A DNA stretch of 6,232 nt from positions 1-6,232 of the IMG/VR virus record IMGVR_UViG_2698536640_000019, one strand, 5' to 3'. Made by a program: the position numbers and the translations under genes. Under the pieces are notes generated by a model. That model ran no database searches. It worked only from the letters and a program-made list of their open reading frames with translations, and was not told the origin of the DNA. Numbering within the stretch: position 1 is the stretch's first letter; each line of letters begins with the position of its first letter. This DNA is from a virus (Duplodnaviria > Heunggongvirae > Uroviricota > Caudoviricetes). Positions 184 to 6,232 of the stretch are shown here, piece after piece.

Positions 184-762
184 TTATTCCTCCGTTATTG
201 CGATGAATTCGGAATGCTTGATTGCCATCAATGACGGATGCAGCTTTTCAGGGGAAAAGGCATTATCTGATTCACCGACAGGAATACGAACCACAACAGC
301 CCCTTTGTCGCCATAGAACCCGGCAGAAGAGCACGCCATAACTGTGCGGCCGTTGCTGACACCAAAAACCTCAAAATAGCAGTCCAGTTTATTAACCATC
401 CAGATACTGAATGCCGGAAGCTGTTTTAACTTCTCGTTTAAGATATTCAGTGCTTTGTTCAGTTTTTTTCCCTCTCGGAATCTGCGGTCGGGCTTAACTG
501 AAAATAAAGTACGGCCATCTTCATCAAATTTATCAGACAACACCCGTTTATTTCTTCCGACATCAACATCCTCATGCACCAGTATTGATTTGACAAAAAA
601 ATCCCCACAATACCAGGAACAACAATACCCTCTGGCATTCTGATTACTGAGAAAATCATCAATCAATTTCTGGCGCTCCCTGCCAACACAATCAAGCCAT
701 TCCCTGTGATAATGACGGGAATCGCTCTCATTCATTTTAAAATAACGATATTTTATACTCAT
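184..762 (-). CDS. Hypothetical 192-aa protein downstream of gam, with a CCxxxC cysteine motif (GYCCSWYCGDFF); function unknown
   Basis: Open reading frame from the ORF track. I prefer the internal ATG at 762-760 (MSIKYRYFKM...) because a GAGG lies 6 nt upstream; the track's start at 774 has no Shine-Dalgarno sequence. Stop TAA at 184-186. Co-oriented with gam, 84 nt downstream of it. The DNA looks AT-richer than the A/B genes by eye. No family recognised. Confidence 0.6.
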   Translation of the reverse strand: MSIKYRYFKMNESDSRHYHREWLDCVGRERQKLIDDFLSNQNARGYCCSWYCGDFFVKSILVHEDVDVGRNKRVLSDKFDEDGRTLFSVKPDRRFREGKKLNKALNILNEKLKQLPAFSIWMVNKLDCYFEVFGVSNGRTVMACSSAGFYGDKGAVVVRIPVGESDNAFSPEKLHPSLMAIKHSEFIAITEE

Positions 763-846
763 GATATGCCTCATTCAGGCGCGAGCAGTCCCCTGACGCA
801 AGCGCCATAATTAAAACGATGTGATATTTAAAGATTTAATGCGGTG

Positions 847-1377
847 TTATTTATTCAGTCCGGCGTCCTGTTCAAAAGGCTCGACATGAAAACTTTCAGC
901 GCCTTTATTCACCTTAATACCAGCAATCCCTTTCACCGCATCCGGCTCTGCCAGGACAGCTTGCTTATTCACTTCCTCTTTCGTGCGGATGAAGCGCTCA
1001 AGCCCCATACGACGCAGCATTTCAATCACACCTTCCACATCACGACTGACGCTGCATGATGGATTTCCCAGCCGCCATGACACCGTTCCGGTGGTCAGAT
1101 TGGCAGTTTTGGTTTCGCCGCCGTTCGTCAGCTCATTGCGGTTGGTTTTACACCAGTCATGAATCCCCTTAAAAAGCACTTTGATTTCTTTTTTAAGGTT
1201 TTCAATCTGCGGCGTATAACGGGCGGTGATTTCTGCCACTTCATCATTCATTGCCGTTTCCAGGCGCAGCGCCTCTCGCTGAATATCGCCCAGGGTGCGG
1301 ATATCGCGGCTGACCTCTTCACGGGTCTGCGGTGCCGCCTCTGCTGCGGCCTTTAATTTTGTAACGCGTTTTGCCAT
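847..1377 (-). CDS. gam: Host-nuclease inhibitor protein Gam (Mu Gam / Ku-like double-strand-end binding protein)
   Basis: 176-aa product. From memory it matches Mu Gam (about 174 aa) in motifs such as LQRE..RLET.MND..AEIT, ELTNGG..KTANL.TG.VSWR and RFIRTK.E.NK.A.L.EP.AV.G.AGI.V..G.E.F...PFEQ.AG. ATG at 1377-1375 is preceded by AAGGA; it sits 11 nt downstream of the preceding gene. Confidence 0.9.
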   Translation of the reverse strand: MAKRVTKLKAAAEAAPQTREEVSRDIRTLGDIQREALRLETAMNDEVAEITARYTPQIENLKKEIKVLFKGIHDWCKTNRNELTNGGETKTANLTTGTVSWRLGNPSCSVSRDVEGVIEMLRRMGLERFIRTKEEVNKQAVLAEPDAVKGIAGIKVNKGAESFHVEPFEQDAGLNK

Positions 1378-1388
1378 TTTGTTTTTCC

Positions 1389-1682
1389 TTATTGCAATGT
1401 ATCTGGTGCGTTCTGCAAAGAACGGCGCTCAATGCTGCTTTTCACCCCCATAGCCTGCATGGAACCCTGTAGTTCATCTGTCAGAAACTGAATAATTGTG
1501 GGGCTGTGATATTTAAGAATTTGTGCATAAACATCACAGGGTCCTGCCGGTCTGTTCTCTGTATCACGTTCGATTTTTACCGTGGCAGTAACCCCCTCTG
1601 TGATTTCCTTACTATCATTACCGGCTGGCTTTACTTCATGCATTACGTGGTCAAATTCAAAAATAACGCGTACTTTGCTCAT
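1389..1682 (-). CDS. Small hypothetical protein (97 aa), paralogue of the adjacent 78-aa protein
   Basis: The ORF-track frame is trimmed to the internal ATG at 1682-1680 (MSKVRVIFEFDH...). Its N-terminus matches the neighbouring gene's MSKVVRIIFEYKEH, and the first 30 nt or so are also similar at DNA level. Stop TAA at 1389-1391, 11 nt before the gam start. Confidence 0.6.
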   Translation of the reverse strand: MSKVRVIFEFDHVMHEVKPAGNDSKEITEGVTATVKIERDTENRPAGPCDVYAQILKYHSPTIIQFLTDELQGSMQAMGVKSSIERRSLQNAPDTLQ

Positions 1683-1722
1683 GGAATTACCCCTGCTGAT
1701 TAAATTCATTACCTTTAATAAC

Positions 1723-1959
1723 CTAGGAACTCATGTCCATATCTTTCATGAGCGCACTGGCTTTCATTGCCACAAGTTCAGTAAAGTCTCTGCTTTCCGC
1801 GAGCATAACCACCCCAAAAATCATGGCAGGTCCATCACCTTTCTGCTTTATCCCGGTTGAACGTATGTCCAGACTTACCCCCATGCGCACTGTTCCATCC
1901 GCGTTTTTATGGATAACGTGCTCCTTGTATTCGAAAATAATGCGTACAACTTTACTCAT
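1723..1959 (-). CDS. Small hypothetical protein (78 aa), paralogue of the adjacent 97-aa protein
   Basis: The ORF-track frame (1723-2058) is trimmed to the internal ATG at 1959-1957 (MSKVVRIIFEYKEHVIHK...), which has GAGGACCAGAGG immediately upstream as a Shine-Dalgarno sequence. The longer track start would overlap the upstream 210-aa gene. Stop TAG at 1723-1725. Confidence 0.6.
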   Translation of the reverse strand: MSKVVRIIFEYKEHVIHKNADGTVRMGVSLDIRSTGIKQKGDGPAMIFGVVMLAESRDFTELVAMKASALMKDMDMSS

Positions 1960-2033
1960 CCTCTGGTCCTCGTTTTGTTCGGATAACTGACCCGGCGTCT
2001 GACCTGATGACAGAGCCGAACCATGAAGCAACT

Positions 2034-2666
2034 TCATACTTCCCAGTAAACCGTGCATCCGCTTATACGGGTGGCCTTCACACGGCGGCGCAGGCCGTTG
2101 GTCTTAACGGTGATTTCAATTTCACCGGTTCCCTTAACTTCGTTTACCGGCGGCGTGGTTTTCAGTGCAAAACGTTGCGGGTAGCGTTTGCTGCGCTCCA
2201 GTACCGCACCAGCAAGTTCAGTCAGGCGGCGGGCGTTATTCAGTGAATCAAACAAATTCATAGGGAACTCCGGTTGTATCAGTAATGGATTCATGCGCAA
2301 TGCAGCCAGCTCTGACAGGAAGCCTCGATTAACTTTACCCATCCCCGGAATTTTTCGGGTTTCGCCACGCATGATTGCACGAAGAATGGAGTAACCGTGT
2401 CGCCACCCCTGGCGATAATCATCCATAATCAGAAAACCAAAGCGCAGGCTTTCCCATACATCCACATCAAAGCATTCATGATTAAAACGGCGTCTGATGG
2501 AATCAAGTTGCATGTCTGCATACCACTGATACAGGTCTATATACAGAAAACACACACCATCACCGTCCATCAATTCATAGATATAATCACAAACCTCCCC
2601 GTCATCGACGTTAAACTCACGAAAGCTGTGGAGAACATTGATTTCCTGCTGTATCTGCATTTTCAT
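2034..2666 (-). CDS. Hypothetical 210-aa protein with an acidic, Trp/Tyr-rich N-terminal half and a basic, Arg/Lys-rich C-terminal half; function unknown
   Basis: Open reading frame from the ORF track. ATG at 2666-2664 is preceded by GAGAGG and lies 12 nt downstream of the 73-aa gene stop. By manual count the N-terminal 88 residues or so have about 18 Asp/Glu against about 7 basic residues; the C-terminal half has about 22 Arg/Lys against about 11 acidic. The DNA under the N-half looks AT-rich and under the C-half GC-rich. No family recognised. Confidence 0.65.
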   Translation of the reverse strand: MKMQIQQEINVLHSFREFNVDDGEVCDYIYELMDGDGVCFLYIDLYQWYADMQLDSIRRRFNHECFDVDVWESLRFGFLIMDDYRQGWRHGYSILRAIMRGETRKIPGMGKVNRGFLSELAALRMNPLLIQPEFPMNLFDSLNNARRLTELAGAVLERSKRYPQRFALKTTPPVNEVKGTGEIEITVKTNGLRRRVKATRISGCTVYWEV

Positions 2667-2678
2667 ATAACCTCTCGT

Positions 2679-2900
2679 TTAACTAACCCGTCTTGCACCG
2701 ATAAAGCGACAAATATTGCTGTAAGCTTCTTTCGCACCTTCACGATCAAGTCCTGCCGATATTGCCATTCGGGTGCGATCATTAAATTCAAAGAGTAAAT
2801 CGCCACATTCTTCACTGTCAGACATGGAGACTGCTTTGACGTTATCGAAATTAACCAGGTAAAAGCGTCCGTAAATATCAGGAATATTAAATACAGCCAT
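2679..2900 (-). CDS. Small hypothetical protein (73 aa) immediately downstream of B, in the position occupied by kil in phage Mu
   Basis: ATG at 2900-2898 lies 2 nt after the B stop (TGA-tt-ATG) with AGG upstream. The ORF track extends to a GTG at 2906 that overlaps the B stop. The kil comparison rests on position and size only (Mu Kil is about 74 aa); I cannot confirm sequence similarity from memory. Confidence 0.5.
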   Translation of the reverse strand: MAVFNIPDIYGRFYLVNFDNVKAVSMSDSEECGDLLFEFNDRTRMAISAGLDREGAKEAYSNICRFIGARRVS

Positions 2901-2902
2901 AA

Positions 2903-3835
2903 TCACACCTGCGAGAGTAATTCAGGGTTGGTATAAACCTCTTTAAAGGCCGCATTAATATGTTTTTCTGTCAGCGCCGCGCCTTCACCGCTGGCGGTGA
3001 GCCACGCCTGGTTAAGCGTATGTGTCAGAACGCGTAACGCTCCCGGCTTTTCAGCGATAGCCTGCATGACGGCCAGCTCGGCCTCACCACTGATTCCCCA
3101 TGCCATGGCAATGGCCAGCACATCCGCCTTTTTGGCCTTGCGAAGTTGTTTTGTACGGGCAAGACGGCTGAACAGGCGCGATAAATCATCAAAGGCGCGG
3201 CGTCCACCTTTAAACAATCCGCGCGGGTTACCAATAAGCACCATCCCGATCCCCGTGGCGTCCTGAATTGCCCGGAGTTGCTCCAGACCGTCAATACCAA
3301 GATGATCCGCCTCATCCACAATCACCAGTCCACGCGTTCCCATCAGGCGACGGCGGATGGCGCGGGATAACGCCCCTTTGTTCGCGCGGGTATAATCAAT
3401 CCCCAGCGCATCGGCCAGCTCCAGCAGACACTCCGTGACGCTGGAATGCGCGGGAGACAGGGTGATCATCCAGGTGTTTGGTTGCTCCTGGCAGTAATTA
3501 CGGGCGGTGGCCGTTTTACCCACCCCGGGCACGCCCACTATGACGTTAATACAGCCCATCAGGCGGACCGCCTGAAACAGTGCGCGCAGCTCCTGGACTG
3601 TCTGTGTTTCCACAAACTGCGGCGGCTCCGGCAGAGAAGGCCGCTTTTTCCAGTCTTTGTACCAGGAGCGCATAGTCGCCGCGATAGCATCATTGTCTCC
3701 TTTATATTTCCCCTTGCGGAAAGCCGATAATGTACCGTCGGAAATTCCCGCCTCTCTGGCGATGACATACTGCGTCAGTACGCCGCCATCAATGAGTTCA
3801 TCAATGGTCTTGATTACATCGTTAATATCGGTCAT
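2903..3835 (-). CDS. B: MuB-like transposition ATPase / target DNA activator
   Basis: 310-aa product. From memory it matches Mu B (about 312 aa) in the motifs LPEPP.FVETQTV, the Walker A region G.PGVGKT, WMIT..P, L.E.DEADHLG, LSRA.RRRL.GT.GLVI.DEADHL, AKKADV.AIA.AW and AEKPGALR.L.H.L. ATG at 3835-3833 is preceded by GAGGT. Confidence 0.9.
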   Translation of the reverse strand: MTDINDVIKTIDELIDGGVLTQYVIAREAGISDGTLSAFRKGKYKGDNDAIAATMRSWYKDWKKRPSLPEPPQFVETQTVQELRALFQAVRLMGCINVIVGVPGVGKTATARNYCQEQPNTWMITLSPAHSSVTECLLELADALGIDYTRANKGALSRAIRRRLMGTRGLVIVDEADHLGIDGLEQLRAIQDATGIGMVLIGNPRGLFKGGRRAFDDLSRLFSRLARTKQLRKAKKADVLAIAMAWGISGEAELAVMQAIAEKPGALRVLTHTLNQAWLTASGEGAALTEKHINAAFKEVYTNPELLSQV

Positions 3836-3911: not shown

Positions 3912-5999
3912 TCAGGCCAGCGGATCACTTTCTTTTAATTTCGCTTCGAGCAGTTGCAATCCCCGCTGGAAATTACGCTCGTATTCTTCGTCAGTTTCAT
4001 CATCAGCGACCGGTTGCTGAACGGTCACCGTATTACCCACAGGGCGGTATATATTTTCCAGCCATGGCTCCTGTGGCTTGTGCTCCAGCACGTTGACAAC
4101 CTCATCCTCGGCATCACGGATTTTTTCCTCTGCGCGTTTACGCATACCTTTAAGGCGCTGCTGCTGTTTGTAGTATTCCGCGCTGACCGGGAAGGCTTCG
4201 CGTTTATTGCCGTCCCATACCGCCTCGCAAATCACGCTGCCATCCTGGCGACGCACGGTAATTCGTTCGGCATCATGAATGTCATAGCTGATAAGCACTT
4301 TGCGGCCATGTTCATCACGCAGCTCGGGCGCGTAGTAAATATTATTCAGCCAGCGTATTTCACAGCGTCTTACAGGGCGTTCCACCATCGGCCGGAACAT
4401 GTCCCGCAATTCCACATCGGACAGCCATTCAATTTCCGTGTCCTCTTCTGCCAGGCGTTTTTTTCTGAACTCCGCCGGGCTGTAATGTTTACCGTTCGGC
4501 TTCATGGGTAATTCATCGTGCGGCCGGTTGTTGTACCACTCAACGCCGTCACGAATGGCATCAATCAGTTCAGACCAGGACGGTAAATCACGCATCGCTG
4601 ACTGCTGCCGGGCGTTCAGCCGCTTGCCCTGTTGCAGGGCAGTGAATGCCGAGCGTAAATCGCGGTTGGTTTTGCGTAACGTCTCGCGATCTGCACCTTT
4701 CCCGAAATAGGTGCGGTATTTACGGGCTATGCGCATCGGTAATGTGCGGTTAAGCCGTTCGATAATGCCCCGTCCCTGCGGATTACCGGCAATCCCGGTC
4801 GGGTGATTAATCCCCAGTCGCGGTAGTATCCCCACAACCTCCTTATCCAGGATGTCGGCGGTTTCCCCGGAGCCATTATCCGAGTAATACAGAAACGGTT
4901 TGCCGTGATGTCGAATACCGTGCTGTATGGCACCGGCTACGGCGAAAACATTTTCAGCCAGGTCAAGGCTCCAGCCCACCACAAAGCGTGTACCGCCATC
5001 GATAACAAAGGTTACTTCCGGTGCAAATGGCCGCCCGTGAACCGGGTGCCTGCATTTCAGCTTCATGCCGTGACCGTCACCAATCCAGACATAGTTCACC
5101 GGCATTCTGGACCAGTCGCGGCGCGTGAATCCCTCAAGCTGGCGGTATTCACTGCCGGTCACCCGGCCTTTTTGTTTCACCACTTCCGGCAGTTTCTTCA
5201 TTGCGCGGCGAATGGTGTCATAAGACGGCATGATATCGAGCATATAAGGCTCATCAGCGTGCCGGTGCTGCCATTCAGCGACAAAATCCTCGTAAGCCTC
5301 GGTCATTGGTCGGCCGTTTGACTGGCGATACTGCGCCAGAAATTCGGGCAGCCAGTTAATATCTTCGGCTTTTATTTCCTGGCGCTTACCAGGTGCCAGC
5401 AAAAGCAGGCGTTCAGCGGCGTTCTGCGCCTTGTTAAAGGCTGCAATCCAGCGTTTCAGCGTGATTTCACTCAACGCGCGGCGGTTTCCCTTTTTGGCGT
5501 TCGCCGTCTCAACCATTGCCACAATGCGCTCGTCCAGTTGTGAACGTGCCAGGTTGTCAACGATAAACCGGATAGCCTTCGCGCAGCTGAAACCGGGTTG
5601 TTGCGCGACTTTCAGCACCTCGCTGACGATCGCGATTCGTGCCTCTGCCACTTTACGTTGGTTTTCAGTCAGGGCATTCAGGCGTTCGACCATCAGTTGT
5701 GGTGATCCGCGATATGCCTCCACCGCATCAACCACGACAGGTGAGCGTCTGGCCTTTGTCACCACCGGAGCCGGTGATTCATCGGCTTTTTGCGTCATCA
5801 GTTGCAGGGCGTAGCGTTCACGTAATGCCTGCTGCGTCACTTCAGGTAAACAGTCGATGCTGTATTCAAAACCTTTAGTGCCTTCCTGGCGGCGTCTGCT
5901 GGTTTCGCTGGTTGCATACTTCCTGATTGAATAGCGGACGCCTTGCTCCGTTCCCGGCATTCCCGGTAATCCAACCAGCTCTTTAACTGAAGCAAACAT
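3912..5999 (-). CDS. A: MuA-like DDE transposase (phage Mu transposase A family)
   Basis: 695-aa product. The N-terminus (VKELVGLPGMPGTEQGV...RRQEGTKGFEYSIDCLPEV) resembles the MuA end/enhancer-binding winged-helix domain. A candidate DDE core is present: WIGDGHG, then YYSDNGSG, then GRGIIERLNRTL. It lies directly downstream of ner (TAA-tt-ATG) and upstream of the B homologue, the canonical Mu order. Confidence 0.92.
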   Translation of the reverse strand: MFASVKELVGLPGMPGTEQGVRYSIRKYATSETSRRRQEGTKGFEYSIDCLPEVTQQALRERYALQLMTQKADESPAPVVTKARRSPVVVDAVEAYRGSPQLMVERLNALTENQRKVAEARIAIVSEVLKVAQQPGFSCAKAIRFIVDNLARSQLDERIVAMVETANAKKGNRRALSEITLKRWIAAFNKAQNAAERLLLLAPGKRQEIKAEDINWLPEFLAQYRQSNGRPMTEAYEDFVAEWQHRHADEPYMLDIMPSYDTIRRAMKKLPEVVKQKGRVTGSEYRQLEGFTRRDWSRMPVNYVWIGDGHGMKLKCRHPVHGRPFAPEVTFVIDGGTRFVVGWSLDLAENVFAVAGAIQHGIRHHGKPFLYYSDNGSGETADILDKEVVGILPRLGINHPTGIAGNPQGRGIIERLNRTLPMRIARKYRTYFGKGADRETLRKTNRDLRSAFTALQQGKRLNARQQSAMRDLPSWSELIDAIRDGVEWYNNRPHDELPMKPNGKHYSPAEFRKKRLAEEDTEIEWLSDVELRDMFRPMVERPVRRCEIRWLNNIYYAPELRDEHGRKVLISYDIHDAERITVRRQDGSVICEAVWDGNKREAFPVSAEYYKQQQRLKGMRKRAEEKIRDAEDEVVNVLEHKPQEPWLENIYRPVGNTVTVQQPVADDETDEEYERNFQRGLQLLEAKLKESDPLA

Positions 6000-6001
6000 A
6001 A

Positions 6002-6232
6002 TTACGCGACCTTACGAATGTAGCGGCTGGGCCAAATCTCCTCGGGTGGCACACCCAGGCATTCCGCAATAATCCCCTCATACTTGGGAACATGACGGTA
6101 TACCGCGTTGTACAGGTTATTCTGACCTACACCAGCTTTACGGGCCAGCGCCCTCATACTTCCTTCTCTGGCTCTGACTTCCCCCAAGATTCTTTGAGGA
6201 TGCCAATCAGGCTTAACTTCATTTCTCGCCAT
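6002..6232 (-). CDS. ner: Ner-like DNA-binding transcriptional regulator (Mu Ner family)
   Basis: 76-aa product. From memory it matches Mu Ner (75 aa) in DWH...I.......S...L.R..G.....L.NA..RH.PK.E.IIA..L...PE.IWPSRY. It lies immediately upstream of the transposase gene. The start codon sits exactly at the right window edge, so its promoter and operators are outside the window. Confidence 0.85.
   Translation of the reverse strand: MARNEVKPDWHPQRILGEVRAREGSMRALARKAGVGQNNLYNAVYRHVPKYEGIIAECLGVPPEEIWPSRYIRKVA

What the first reader, a model, noticed from the sequence alone, without database searches (positions are those of the whole stretch)
1389..2900. Unassigned accessory gene cluster between B and gam in a Mu-like early operon
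Four co-oriented, tightly packed genes sit between the conserved B and gam genes: a 73-aa protein, a 210-aa protein with opposite charge in its two halves, and two paralogous small proteins. I could not assign any of them to a known family from memory. In phage Mu this semi-essential early region encodes host-takeover functions (kil, gam, sot, arm, lig and others) and varies between Mu-like phages. Early-expressed variable cargo next to a nuclease inhibitor is a typical place for anti-defence or host-manipulation genes, but that role is inferred from context alone.
Basis: partly seen in the sequence, partly recalled or inferred. Interest (0 to 1): 0.75.

Follow-up and report, generated by a model that had tools for sequence, protein, structure and literature searches.

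The report
Mu-like prophage early genes, including Kil
This stretch is the ordinary "semi-essential" early region of a common E. coli Mu-like prophage: it holds five gene modules, not four, including the host-killing gene kil fused in frame to its upstream neighbour, and nothing found here links it to anti-defence.

Summary
The 210-aa "protein with oppositely charged halves" is an in-frame fusion of two genes that are separate and overlap by 14 nt in most relatives. One is an acidic 139-aa homologue of Mu gp8/E7. The other is a basic 75-aa Kil protein (Pfam PF26843, phrog_2679; it shares its C-terminal motif with Mu Kil). A 1-bp deletion makes the fusion; it recurs in 14 independent E. coli sequences on several allelic backgrounds. 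One of the two "paralogues" is a 90-aa gene cut to 78 aa here by an amber codon. The 73-aa gene is nearly invariant, sits two bases after the B stop in Escherichia, Salmonella and Klebsiella elements, belongs to a very small family, and is predicted to have a small PH-like/LytTR-like fold. All ORFs are under purifying selection. Kil is flanked by two insertion/deletion slots, and the E7-like and 97-aa genes diverge fast, so the region is modular but its core order is conserved. No defence or anti-defence homology was found. Verdict: a lineage version of the known Mu early region. It is largely uncharacterised and of modest interest.

The parts
2903..3835 (-). MuB-type AAA+ transposition ATPase (310 aa); left boundary gene of the interval
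   Evidence: Pfam Phage-MuB_C E 7.6e-25 and AAA_22 E 4.7e-18; 47% identical to Mu B.
2679..2900 (-). orf73: a 73-aa acidic protein (phrog_3375) that starts 2 nt after the B stop codon; predicted fold is five beta-strands plus a C-terminal helix (PH-like/LytTR-like)
2034..2666 (-). 210-aa fused ORF: E7-like module joined in frame to Kil
   Evidence: ORF. The fusion is shown by alignment with L002, where the genes are separate. The same open 210/211-aa frame is present in L001, L019-L028, L031 and L032.
2262..2666 (-). E7-like portion (135 aa here; a separate 139-aa gene in most relatives), acidic, homologue of Mu gp8/E7
   Evidence: Separate 137-140-aa proteins P0002-P0011. BLASTP against Mu gp8 gives 32% over 76 aa, E 1.5e-4. 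HHalign gives 95.3%, E 2.1e-8 over residues 1-74. The Klebsiella 135-aa counterpart is 26% identical to both the window protein and Mu gp8. dN/dS is 0.3-0.5.
2262..2271 (-). Fusion junction: GGAGTTCCCT immediately before the kil ATG (unfused alleles read GGAGTTCACTT). The 1-bp loss puts the E7-like frame in phase with kil. GGAG is also the kil Shine-Dalgarno sequence.
2034..2261 (-). Kil-family gene (75 aa, basic) with its own ATG and Shine-Dalgarno sequence inside the fused ORF
   Evidence: phrog_2679 'Kil' E 1.8e-39 and phrog_2743 (Mu Kil's family) E 0.001. Mu Kil hits phrog_2679 at E 9.3e-5. PF26843 Kil_protein is recorded on the identical sequence. It is 36% identical to Mu Kil over the C-terminal 39 aa. 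dN/dS is 0.07-0.11. It is 73-75% identical in the Salmonella and Klebsiella elements.
1960..2033 (-). 74-nt intergenic gap after kil: a variable slot. A 92-93-aa phrog_1518 gene lies directly after kil in the O157-type E. coli element (before the par90-type gene) and in the Klebsiella element (which has no par90-type gene).
1723..1959 (-). par90 (phrog_4107) truncated to 78 aa by an amber codon at 1723-1725 (GGG>TAG); the remaining 12 codons run to 1687
   Evidence: phrog_4107 E 5.9e-50. DNA alignment with L001-L003. The amber codon is in 5/10 loci, the gene is intact in 4/10 and frameshifted in 1/10 of L019-L028.
1389..1682 (-). par97 (phrog_2230), 97 aa, a distant paralogue of par90; predicted beta-hairpin plus long helix; fast-evolving, with two deep alleles
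847..1377 (-). Gam (Ku-like DNA-end binding protein, RecBCD inhibitor); right boundary gene
   Evidence: Pfam Phage_Mu_Gam E 2.1e-39; 55% identical to Mu Gam.

Best explanation
The interval 1389-2900 is the promoter-proximal part of the semi-essential early region of an E. coli Mu-like prophage lineage that includes O157:H7 strains. Shown: it lies inside one co-oriented, tightly spaced gene string (ner-A-B-...-gam) with no internal promoter or terminator signal above chance. Inferred: it is transcribed from the early promoter when the repressor is lost, as in Mu. It carries five modules. (1) orf73 is a small PH-like protein that starts two bases after the B stop; this core position and near-invariance argue for a conserved task linked to B/early replication or to a conserved host target (inferred). 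(2) An acidic homologue of Mu gp8/E7, function unknown. (3) Kil is the one module with a known phenotype in Mu: its expression kills the host and turns rods into spheres, implying a block of cell elongation; I infer the same role here, carried by the conserved basic C-terminal motif RRRVxAxR(I/V)xGCxVxW. (4, 5) Two diverged paralogues of a beta-hairpin-plus-helix protein, function unknown. In this window's sub-lineage a 1-bp deletion puts the E7-like gene and kil in one frame, so a 210-aa E7-like::Kil protein should be made. Kil alone can probably still start at its own retained SD and ATG (inferred). An amber codon also removes the last 12 residues of par90. The fast-evolving modules (E7-like, par97) and the two indel slots beside kil are the likeliest host-interaction components, but no specific target is supported.
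For: Mu-like operon: Ner HTH_35, Mu transposase, MuB and Gam domains. The same lineage occurs in 233 of 5426 complete E. coli genomes, including O157:H7 strains. Kil assignment. Mu gp8/E7 homology. Separate genes in relatives and the 1-bp deletion here. The fusion is open in 14 independent sequences on at least three allelic backgrounds. Purifying selection on every ORF. No promoter/terminator excess and no Rfam match. SD sequences and 2-12-nt spacers. Conserved order across three genera. Mu kil gives spherical cells (PMC3961180). Deleting the Mu semi-essential region restores host viability after MuBam infection (PMC3325207).
Against: Similarity to Mu Kil is limited to the C-terminal ~39 residues (HHalign probability only 66%). 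Kil is the third module after B here, not the first as in Mu. No phenotype has been tested for any gene of this lineage. The E7-like match to Mu gp8 covers only the N-terminal half. Functions of orf73, E7-like, par90 and par97 remain unassigned. The fold hits for orf73 are weak (Z no higher than 6.4) and the par97 model has low confidence. Whether the fusion protein is made, is stable or is toxic is unknown.
Confidence: 0.72

Rival explanations
1. Anti-defence cargo: one or more of orf73, E7-like, par90 and par97 is a dedicated inhibitor of a bacterial defence system, expressed early next to the RecBCD inhibitor Gam.
For: Early expression is inferred from position next to Gam. The proteins are small and mostly acidic. 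E7-like and par97 diverge very fast relative to Gam (26-35% vs 84% identity between genera) and par97 shows deep allelic dimorphism. Two indel slots flank kil, and one holds a phrog_1518 'host nuclease inhibitor' gene in other elements.
Against: There is no homology to any characterised protein: Pfam, NCBIfam, PADLOC and PDB all gave nothing. orf73 and kil are conserved core genes, not variable cargo. Two modules have Mu counterparts that decades of Mu genetics have not linked to defence evasion. No anti-defence HMM library was available to test the idea directly.
Confidence: 0.2
2. Toxin-antidote pair: the acidic E7-like protein neutralises or chaperones the basic Kil protein, and the fusion is a self-neutralised single-chain form.
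For: The two genes are adjacent with a 14-nt overlap, suggesting translational coupling, in unfused alleles. Their net charges are opposite, -6 and +6.5. The fusion is tolerated in many strains.
Against: The majority O157-type and L003-type E. coli elements and the Salmonella element keep kil but lack the E7-like gene entirely. In Mu, kil and gp8/E7 are separated by two genes. There is no promoter of their own.
Confidence: 0.08
3. Decay: the fusion and the amber codon are neutral or degenerative lesions in a prophage that is rarely induced, with no functional meaning.
For: This window carries two ORF-altering changes in 1.5 kb. par90 is also frameshifted in L028. PGAP leaves the E7-like part of fused alleles unannotated.
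Against: The 210-aa frame is fully open in 14 of 14 fused sequences despite substantial divergence of the E7-like part, and it occurs on several allelic backgrounds. The transposase, B, Gam and all other ORFs in the window are intact. The kil SD and ATG are retained.
Confidence: 0.3
4. Artefact: the ORFs are chance reading frames, or the fusion is a sequencing error.
For: None beyond the small size of the ORFs.
Against: The PHROG hits are strong. dN/dS is below 1 for all ORFs. The exact protein sequences recur on tens to about a thousand contigs. The junction is identical in 14 independent sequences.
Confidence: 0.01

Closest known systems
Phage Mu semi-essential early region (kil, E5/gp6, E6/gp7, E7/gp8, E8/gp9 between B and gam; GenBank AF083977)
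   Same: Same position between B and gam in the early operon. Same style of small, tightly packed genes. It shares a Kil-family gene and a gp8/E7 homologue of identical length, 139 aa.
   Different: The order differs: Mu has kil first after B, while here orf73 is first and kil is third. There is no counterpart of Mu gp6 (zinc ribbon) or gp9 (HTH). orf73 has no Mu counterpart. There are two paralogues of a family that only weakly cross-hits Mu gp7. E7-like and kil are fused in this window.
Mu Kil (74 aa; phrog_2743; expression gives spherical, dying E. coli)
   Same: Similar length, basic character, the shared C-terminal motif ...V.A.R..GC.(I/V).W, and reciprocal PHROG cross-hits. The window protein is placed in Pfam PF26843 'Kil_protein'.
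   Different: Only the C-terminal ~39 residues align, at 36% identity. The genomic position differs. In this window it is the C-terminal part of a 210-aa ORF. The phenotype is untested.
Lambda Kil and Rac KilR (FtsZ-directed division inhibitors)
   Same: Small early-expressed prophage proteins that are toxic through cell-envelope or division targets.
   Different: They are unrelated in sequence to Mu Kil and give filaments, not spheres (PMC3961180). They share a name, not a family.
E. coli O157:H7 Sakai prophage Sp18 (published Mu-like prophage)
   Same: Sp18 is reported as an intact, packaged Mu-like prophage of an O157:H7 strain (PMC2669165). The window's prophage lineage is also found in O157:H7 genomes; those elements share B, orf73, kil, par and gam.
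   Different: I did not compare the window with Sp18 itself, so equating the two is an inference. The O157-type elements examined here lack the E7-like module and carry an extra 93-aa phrog_1518 gene after kil. The window belongs to the minority architecture that has the E7-like module (about 10 of 234 records).

Membership tests
Mu-like transposable-phage early operon | Ner-type regulator, MuA transposase, MuB ATPase and Gam in one co-oriented string | tested here: met
   HTH_35 E 1e-21, Mu-transpos_C E 1.3e-17, Phage-MuB_C E 7.6e-25, Phage_Mu_Gam E 2.1e-39.
Kil family (Pfam PF26843 Kil_protein / phrog_2679) | Profile match over the full ~75-aa protein | tested here: met
   phrog_2679 E 1.8e-39 over profile positions 5-79 of 79. 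PF26843 is recorded for the identical sequence in L019-L028. My local Pfam copy lacks this model.
Kil family (Pfam PF26843 Kil_protein / phrog_2679) | Homology to the experimentally defined Mu Kil | tested here: inconclusive
   Only the C-terminal 39 aa align: BLASTP E 1.7e-5, HHalign 66% and E 5.8e-5. The PHROG cross-hits are E 0.001 and E 9.3e-5.
Kil family (Pfam PF26843 Kil_protein / phrog_2679) | Host killing with rounding of cells on expression | not testable with these tools
   The phenotype is known only for Mu kil (PMC3961180).
Mu gp8/E7 family (phrog_3690) | Profile-level homology and comparable length | tested here: met
   HHalign 95.3%, E 2.1e-8 over residues 1-74, and both proteins are 139 aa. 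BLASTP E 1.5e-4. The Klebsiella homologue bridges both at 26% identity. The direct phrog_3690 hit is only E 0.053, and the C-terminal half does not align.
Mu gp7/E6 family (phrog_10252) | Profile-level homology of par90/par97 to Mu gp7 | tested here: not met
   HHalign probabilities are 0.7% and 0.1%. The only link is a weak hit of Mu gp7 to phrog_2230 at E 0.009.
Known anti-phage defence systems (PADLOC) | HMM match to any defence-system component | tested here: not met
   No family at E up to 1 for any of the six proteins.
Known anti-defence proteins (Ocr, Acr, Tad, Gad and similar) | Sequence or fold match to a characterised inhibitor | tested here: inconclusive
Type II toxin-antitoxin module (E7-like + Kil) | Obligate co-occurrence of the two genes and an autonomous promoter | tested here: not met
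   Kil occurs without the E7-like gene in L003, L004, most E. coli records and the Salmonella element L029. There is no promoter signal above chance.
PH-like / LytTR beta-fold (orf73) | Significant structural superposition on a confident model | tested here: inconclusive

The most novel reading that the evidence does not exclude
At least one of the uncharacterised modules is a previously undescribed early host-takeover or counter-defence protein with a new target. The best candidates are the fast-evolving E7-like protein or par97, or the invariant PH-like orf73 coupled to MuB. The recurrent E7-like::Kil fusion would then be a functional single-chain variant that changes how or when Kil acts, not a lesion.
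Probability: 0.2. Interest if true: 0.6.

Novelty: new member of a known kind. Interest (0 to 1): 0.3.

Why it matters
The semi-essential early region of Mu has been known for decades, yet most of its genes have no function and the target of Mu Kil is still unknown. This lineage is present in about 4% of complete E. coli genomes, including O157:H7 strains. It offers natural variants that could serve as genetic handles: kil alone, kil with short N-terminal extensions, kil behind a separate E7-like gene, and kil fused to it. The work also corrects annotation. The fused alleles leave about 417 nt unannotated in RefSeq records, and the gene after B is a conserved, structurally predictable ORFan. 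Beyond that the finding is ordinary: a lineage version of a known phage region, with no evidence for a new kind of system.

Tried and rejected
- Scan of genome contigs with Gam: it found only distant Gam relatives in Patescibacteria and Verrucomicrobiota MAGs, which do not help here.
- Exact-junction scans of IMG/VR: 1 fused and 0 unfused matches, too few to estimate a frequency.
- Foldseek against AFDB50: the library was not available.
- PDB sequence searches with single proteins and profiles: only noise.
- NCBIfam and PADLOC: no hits.
- Rfam at permissive threshold and promoter/terminator scans: nothing above chance, so there is no hidden RNA or separate transcription unit.
- tblastn against 50,697 phage records: only two records carry these genes, both Mu-like phages inserted into Stx phages, so no isolated and characterised phage has this gene set.
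- Homology of the paralogues to Mu gp7/E6: attractive from pattern and position, but not supported by HHalign.
- Sequencing error as the cause of the fusion: rejected, because the junction is identical in 14 independent sequences.
- Toxin-antitoxin reading: rejected, because kil is widely found without the E7-like gene.
Full report
WHAT IS IN THE WINDOW

All long ORFs lie on the minus strand. In order they are:
- a Ner-type regulator (6002-6232)
- a Mu transposase (3912-5999)
- a MuB ATPase (2903-3835)
- the interval in question (1389-2900)
- Gam (847-1377)
- a DUF5420 protein (184-774)

The Pfam hits for the flanking genes are unambiguous. The DNA is 90-99% identical to a prophage found in 233 of 5426 complete E. 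coli genomes, including O157:H7 strains, and to a 'Mu-like phage' inserted into two Stx phages. A Mu-like prophage of O157:H7 Sakai, Sp18, has been reported as intact and packaged (PMC2669165). I did not compare the window with Sp18 directly.

CHECKING THE OBSERVATION

The four ORFs exist at the stated coordinates. They are real genes:
- Each is preceded by a Shine-Dalgarno sequence, with 2-12-nt spacers.
- Each hits a PHROG family at E 1e-36 to 1e-50.
- The exact protein sequences recur on tens to about a thousand contigs.
- Pairwise dN/dS against 14 related loci is below 1 for all of them: kil 0.07-0.11, orf73 about 0 in most comparisons, par90 about 0.2, E7-like 0.3-0.5, par97 about 0.4.

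The opposite charge of the two halves of the 210-aa ORF is also real: pI 5.0 versus 10.35.

THE 210-aa ORF IS TWO GENES FUSED

In E. coli OkiPb01677 (L002) and in 10 of 10 loci that carry the exact orf73 sequence (L008-L017), this stretch is annotated as a 139/140-aa gene and a 76-aa gene overlapping by 14 nt. The DNA alignment shows that the window, like L001, reads GGAGTTC-CCTATG where L002 reads GGAGTTCACTTATG. That is a 1-bp loss just upstream of the second gene's ATG, and it puts the upstream frame in phase with the downstream one.

This is not an error. The same junction, with a fully open 210/211-aa frame, is present in L001, in all ten sampled loci that carry the window's exact 75-aa sequence (L019-L028), and in two further complete genomes (L031, L032). 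These sequences sit on at least three different allelic backgrounds of both halves. Among the ten complete genomes with this architecture, four have only four annotated hypothetical genes. Three of those four were checked and all are fused. The NCBI annotation of fused alleles calls only the 75-aa gene and leaves about 417 nt unannotated.

WHAT THE TWO HALVES ARE

The C-terminal 75 aa belong to a Kil family:
- phrog_2679 'Kil protein' at E 1.8e-39.
- The precomputed Pfam family PF26843 'Kil_protein' is recorded on the identical sequence. My local Pfam copy predates this model, which explains the empty result.
- Mu Kil itself sits in phrog_2743 and cross-hits phrog_2679 at E 9.3e-5. The window protein cross-hits phrog_2743 at E 0.001.
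- Direct comparison aligns only the C-terminal ~39 residues, at 36% identity (BLASTP E 1.7e-5; HHalign 66%, E 5.8e-5), around a shared ...V.A.R..GC.(I/V).W motif.

The N-terminal part is a homologue of Mu gp8/E7. It has the same 139-aa length in unfused form. HHalign gives 95.3% and E 2.1e-8 over residues 1-74. A Klebsiella homologue is 26% identical to both the window protein and Mu gp8. Mu gp8 has no known function.

THE OTHER THREE GENES

orf73 (phrog_3375):
- It starts two bases after the B stop codon. It is in that position in E. coli, Salmonella and Klebsiella elements, at 53-58% identity.
- The family is very small: 13 representatives at E below 1e-3 among 1.84 billion proteins. It has no Mu counterpart.
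- AlphaFold2 gives a confident model (pLDDT 86.9, pTM 0.72) of five strands followed by a C-terminal helix.
- This defines a fold class, not a function. Its acidity (pI 4.9) argues against DNA binding.

The two 'paralogues':
- They belong to phrog_4107 and phrog_2230.
- The relationship has moderate support: BLASTP E 5e-5 at 24% identity, HHalign 66% and E 5.5e-5 over 74 columns.
- The upstream one is a 90-aa gene in relatives. It is cut to 78 aa here by GGG>TAG. Within the fused sub-lineage it carries the amber codon in 5/10 loci, is intact in 4/10 and is frameshifted in 1/10.
- A link to Mu gp7/E6 is suggested by one weak PHROG cross-hit (E 0.009) but is not supported by HHalign.

IS IT A VARIABLE HOTSPOT?

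Partly. Three architectures occur in E. coli:
- Window type: orf73 - E7-like - kil - par90 - par97. This covers about 10 of 234 records.
- Majority type, which includes the O157:H7 records: no E7-like module, plus an extra 93-aa phrog_1518 gene after kil.
- A type with neither module.

In the types that lack the E7-like gene, kil uses the same RBS and start region as the E7-like gene and gains nine N-terminal residues, so the module is a clean indel. In Klebsiella a phrog_1518 gene lies directly after kil, in the position of par90. The Salmonella element lacks both the E7-like gene and par90, and it has a DUF3164 gene where Gam would be.

Divergence is very uneven. Between the E. coli and Klebsiella elements the identities are Gam 84%, Kil 75%, orf73 55%, E7-like 26%, and par97 barely detectable. 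par97 also has two alleles that are 71% identical at the nucleotide level inside flanks that are 95-98% identical.

So kil is flanked by two variable slots and two genes evolve fast. But the backbone B-orf73-...-kil-...-par97 is conserved across genera, and in ten varied contexts it was constant while the repressor gene was not.

HOW IT MOST LIKELY WORKS

The interval shows no promoter or terminator signal above chance and no Rfam match. It most likely rides on the early transcript, as in Mu.

The only module with a known phenotype is Kil. In Mu, kil expression yields spherical cells, which implies a block of cell elongation (PMC3961180). Deleting the whole semi-essential region restores host viability after infection with a replication-defective Mu (PMC3325207). 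I infer the same host-killing role here, carried by the conserved C-terminal part.

Kil tolerates N-terminal extensions in nature: 9 residues in two architectures and 135 residues in the fusion. The fusion retains the kil SD and ATG. The fused allele therefore probably still delivers Kil activity, but this is untested.

I found no support for the anti-defence reading beyond context. PADLOC, NCBIfam, Pfam, PDB and the fold searches gave no relevant match. No anti-defence profile library was available.

VERDICT

The region is a lineage version of the known Mu semi-essential early region. It contains a Kil-family gene and a Mu gp8 homologue (fused in this window), a conserved ORFan with a PH-like fold, and two fast-diverging paralogues, one of them truncated. 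It is modular, widespread and uncharacterised. Nothing places it outside the known kind, and the anti-defence hypothesis remains untested speculation.

Noticed in passing
L004:3157-3438 (E. coli NCCP15648) and L030:5383-5661 (Klebsiella oxytoca): A 92-93-aa gene of phrog_1518 ('host nuclease inhibitor') lies directly after kil in these elements. The same domain matches the C-terminal part (positions 187-261) of phrog_18351, whose N-terminal 160 positions match Gam. This suggests that Gam + phrog_1518 fusion proteins exist and that the two may be functionally linked. It has no PDB relative.
   Followed up: partly
L008-L017, about 330-1050 in locus coordinates (upstream of ner): The divergently transcribed repressor gene differs widely between otherwise near-identical prophages: 168, 176, 184, 199, 203 and 213 aa, with different Pfam domains (HTH_Tnp_Mu_1, HTH_3/HTH_31, Phage_CI_repr). 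The immunity region therefore appears to be swapped far more freely than the B-gam interval.
   Followed up: no
L029:5299-5937 (Salmonella enterica): In the Salmonella Mu-like element, a 212-aa DUF3164 protein (phrog_846) sits where Gam lies in the E. coli and Klebsiella elements, followed by a 182-aa DUF5420-like gene. This may be a non-orthologous replacement of Gam.
   Followed up: no
window 1389-1682 compared with L002 and L008-L017: par97 exists as two deeply divergent alleles (71% nucleotide identity, dN about 0.29, dS about 0.7) although the adjacent gam is 95-98% identical. This is a sharp mosaic boundary, suggesting recombination or diversifying pressure.
   Followed up: partly
window 184-774; L011:6642-7219: The gene after gam is a DUF5420 protein (Pfam E 7.5e-13; phrog_2260). 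It is called as two pieces (100 + 98 aa) in L011, apparently a disrupted copy.
   Followed up: no
LC727895.1 7433-13317 and LC727881.1 68623-74289 (hits H1, H2): The only phage-database records with this gene set are Stx1a- and Stx2c-converting phages annotated as carrying an inserted Mu-like phage. A transposable prophage has landed inside another prophage.
   Followed up: no
L001:3463-3879, L031:1163-1579, L032:1166-1582, L019-L028:2084-2500: In every fused allele, the public annotation calls only the 75/76-aa kil gene and leaves about 417 nt of open, conserved reading frame unannotated.
   Followed up: yes
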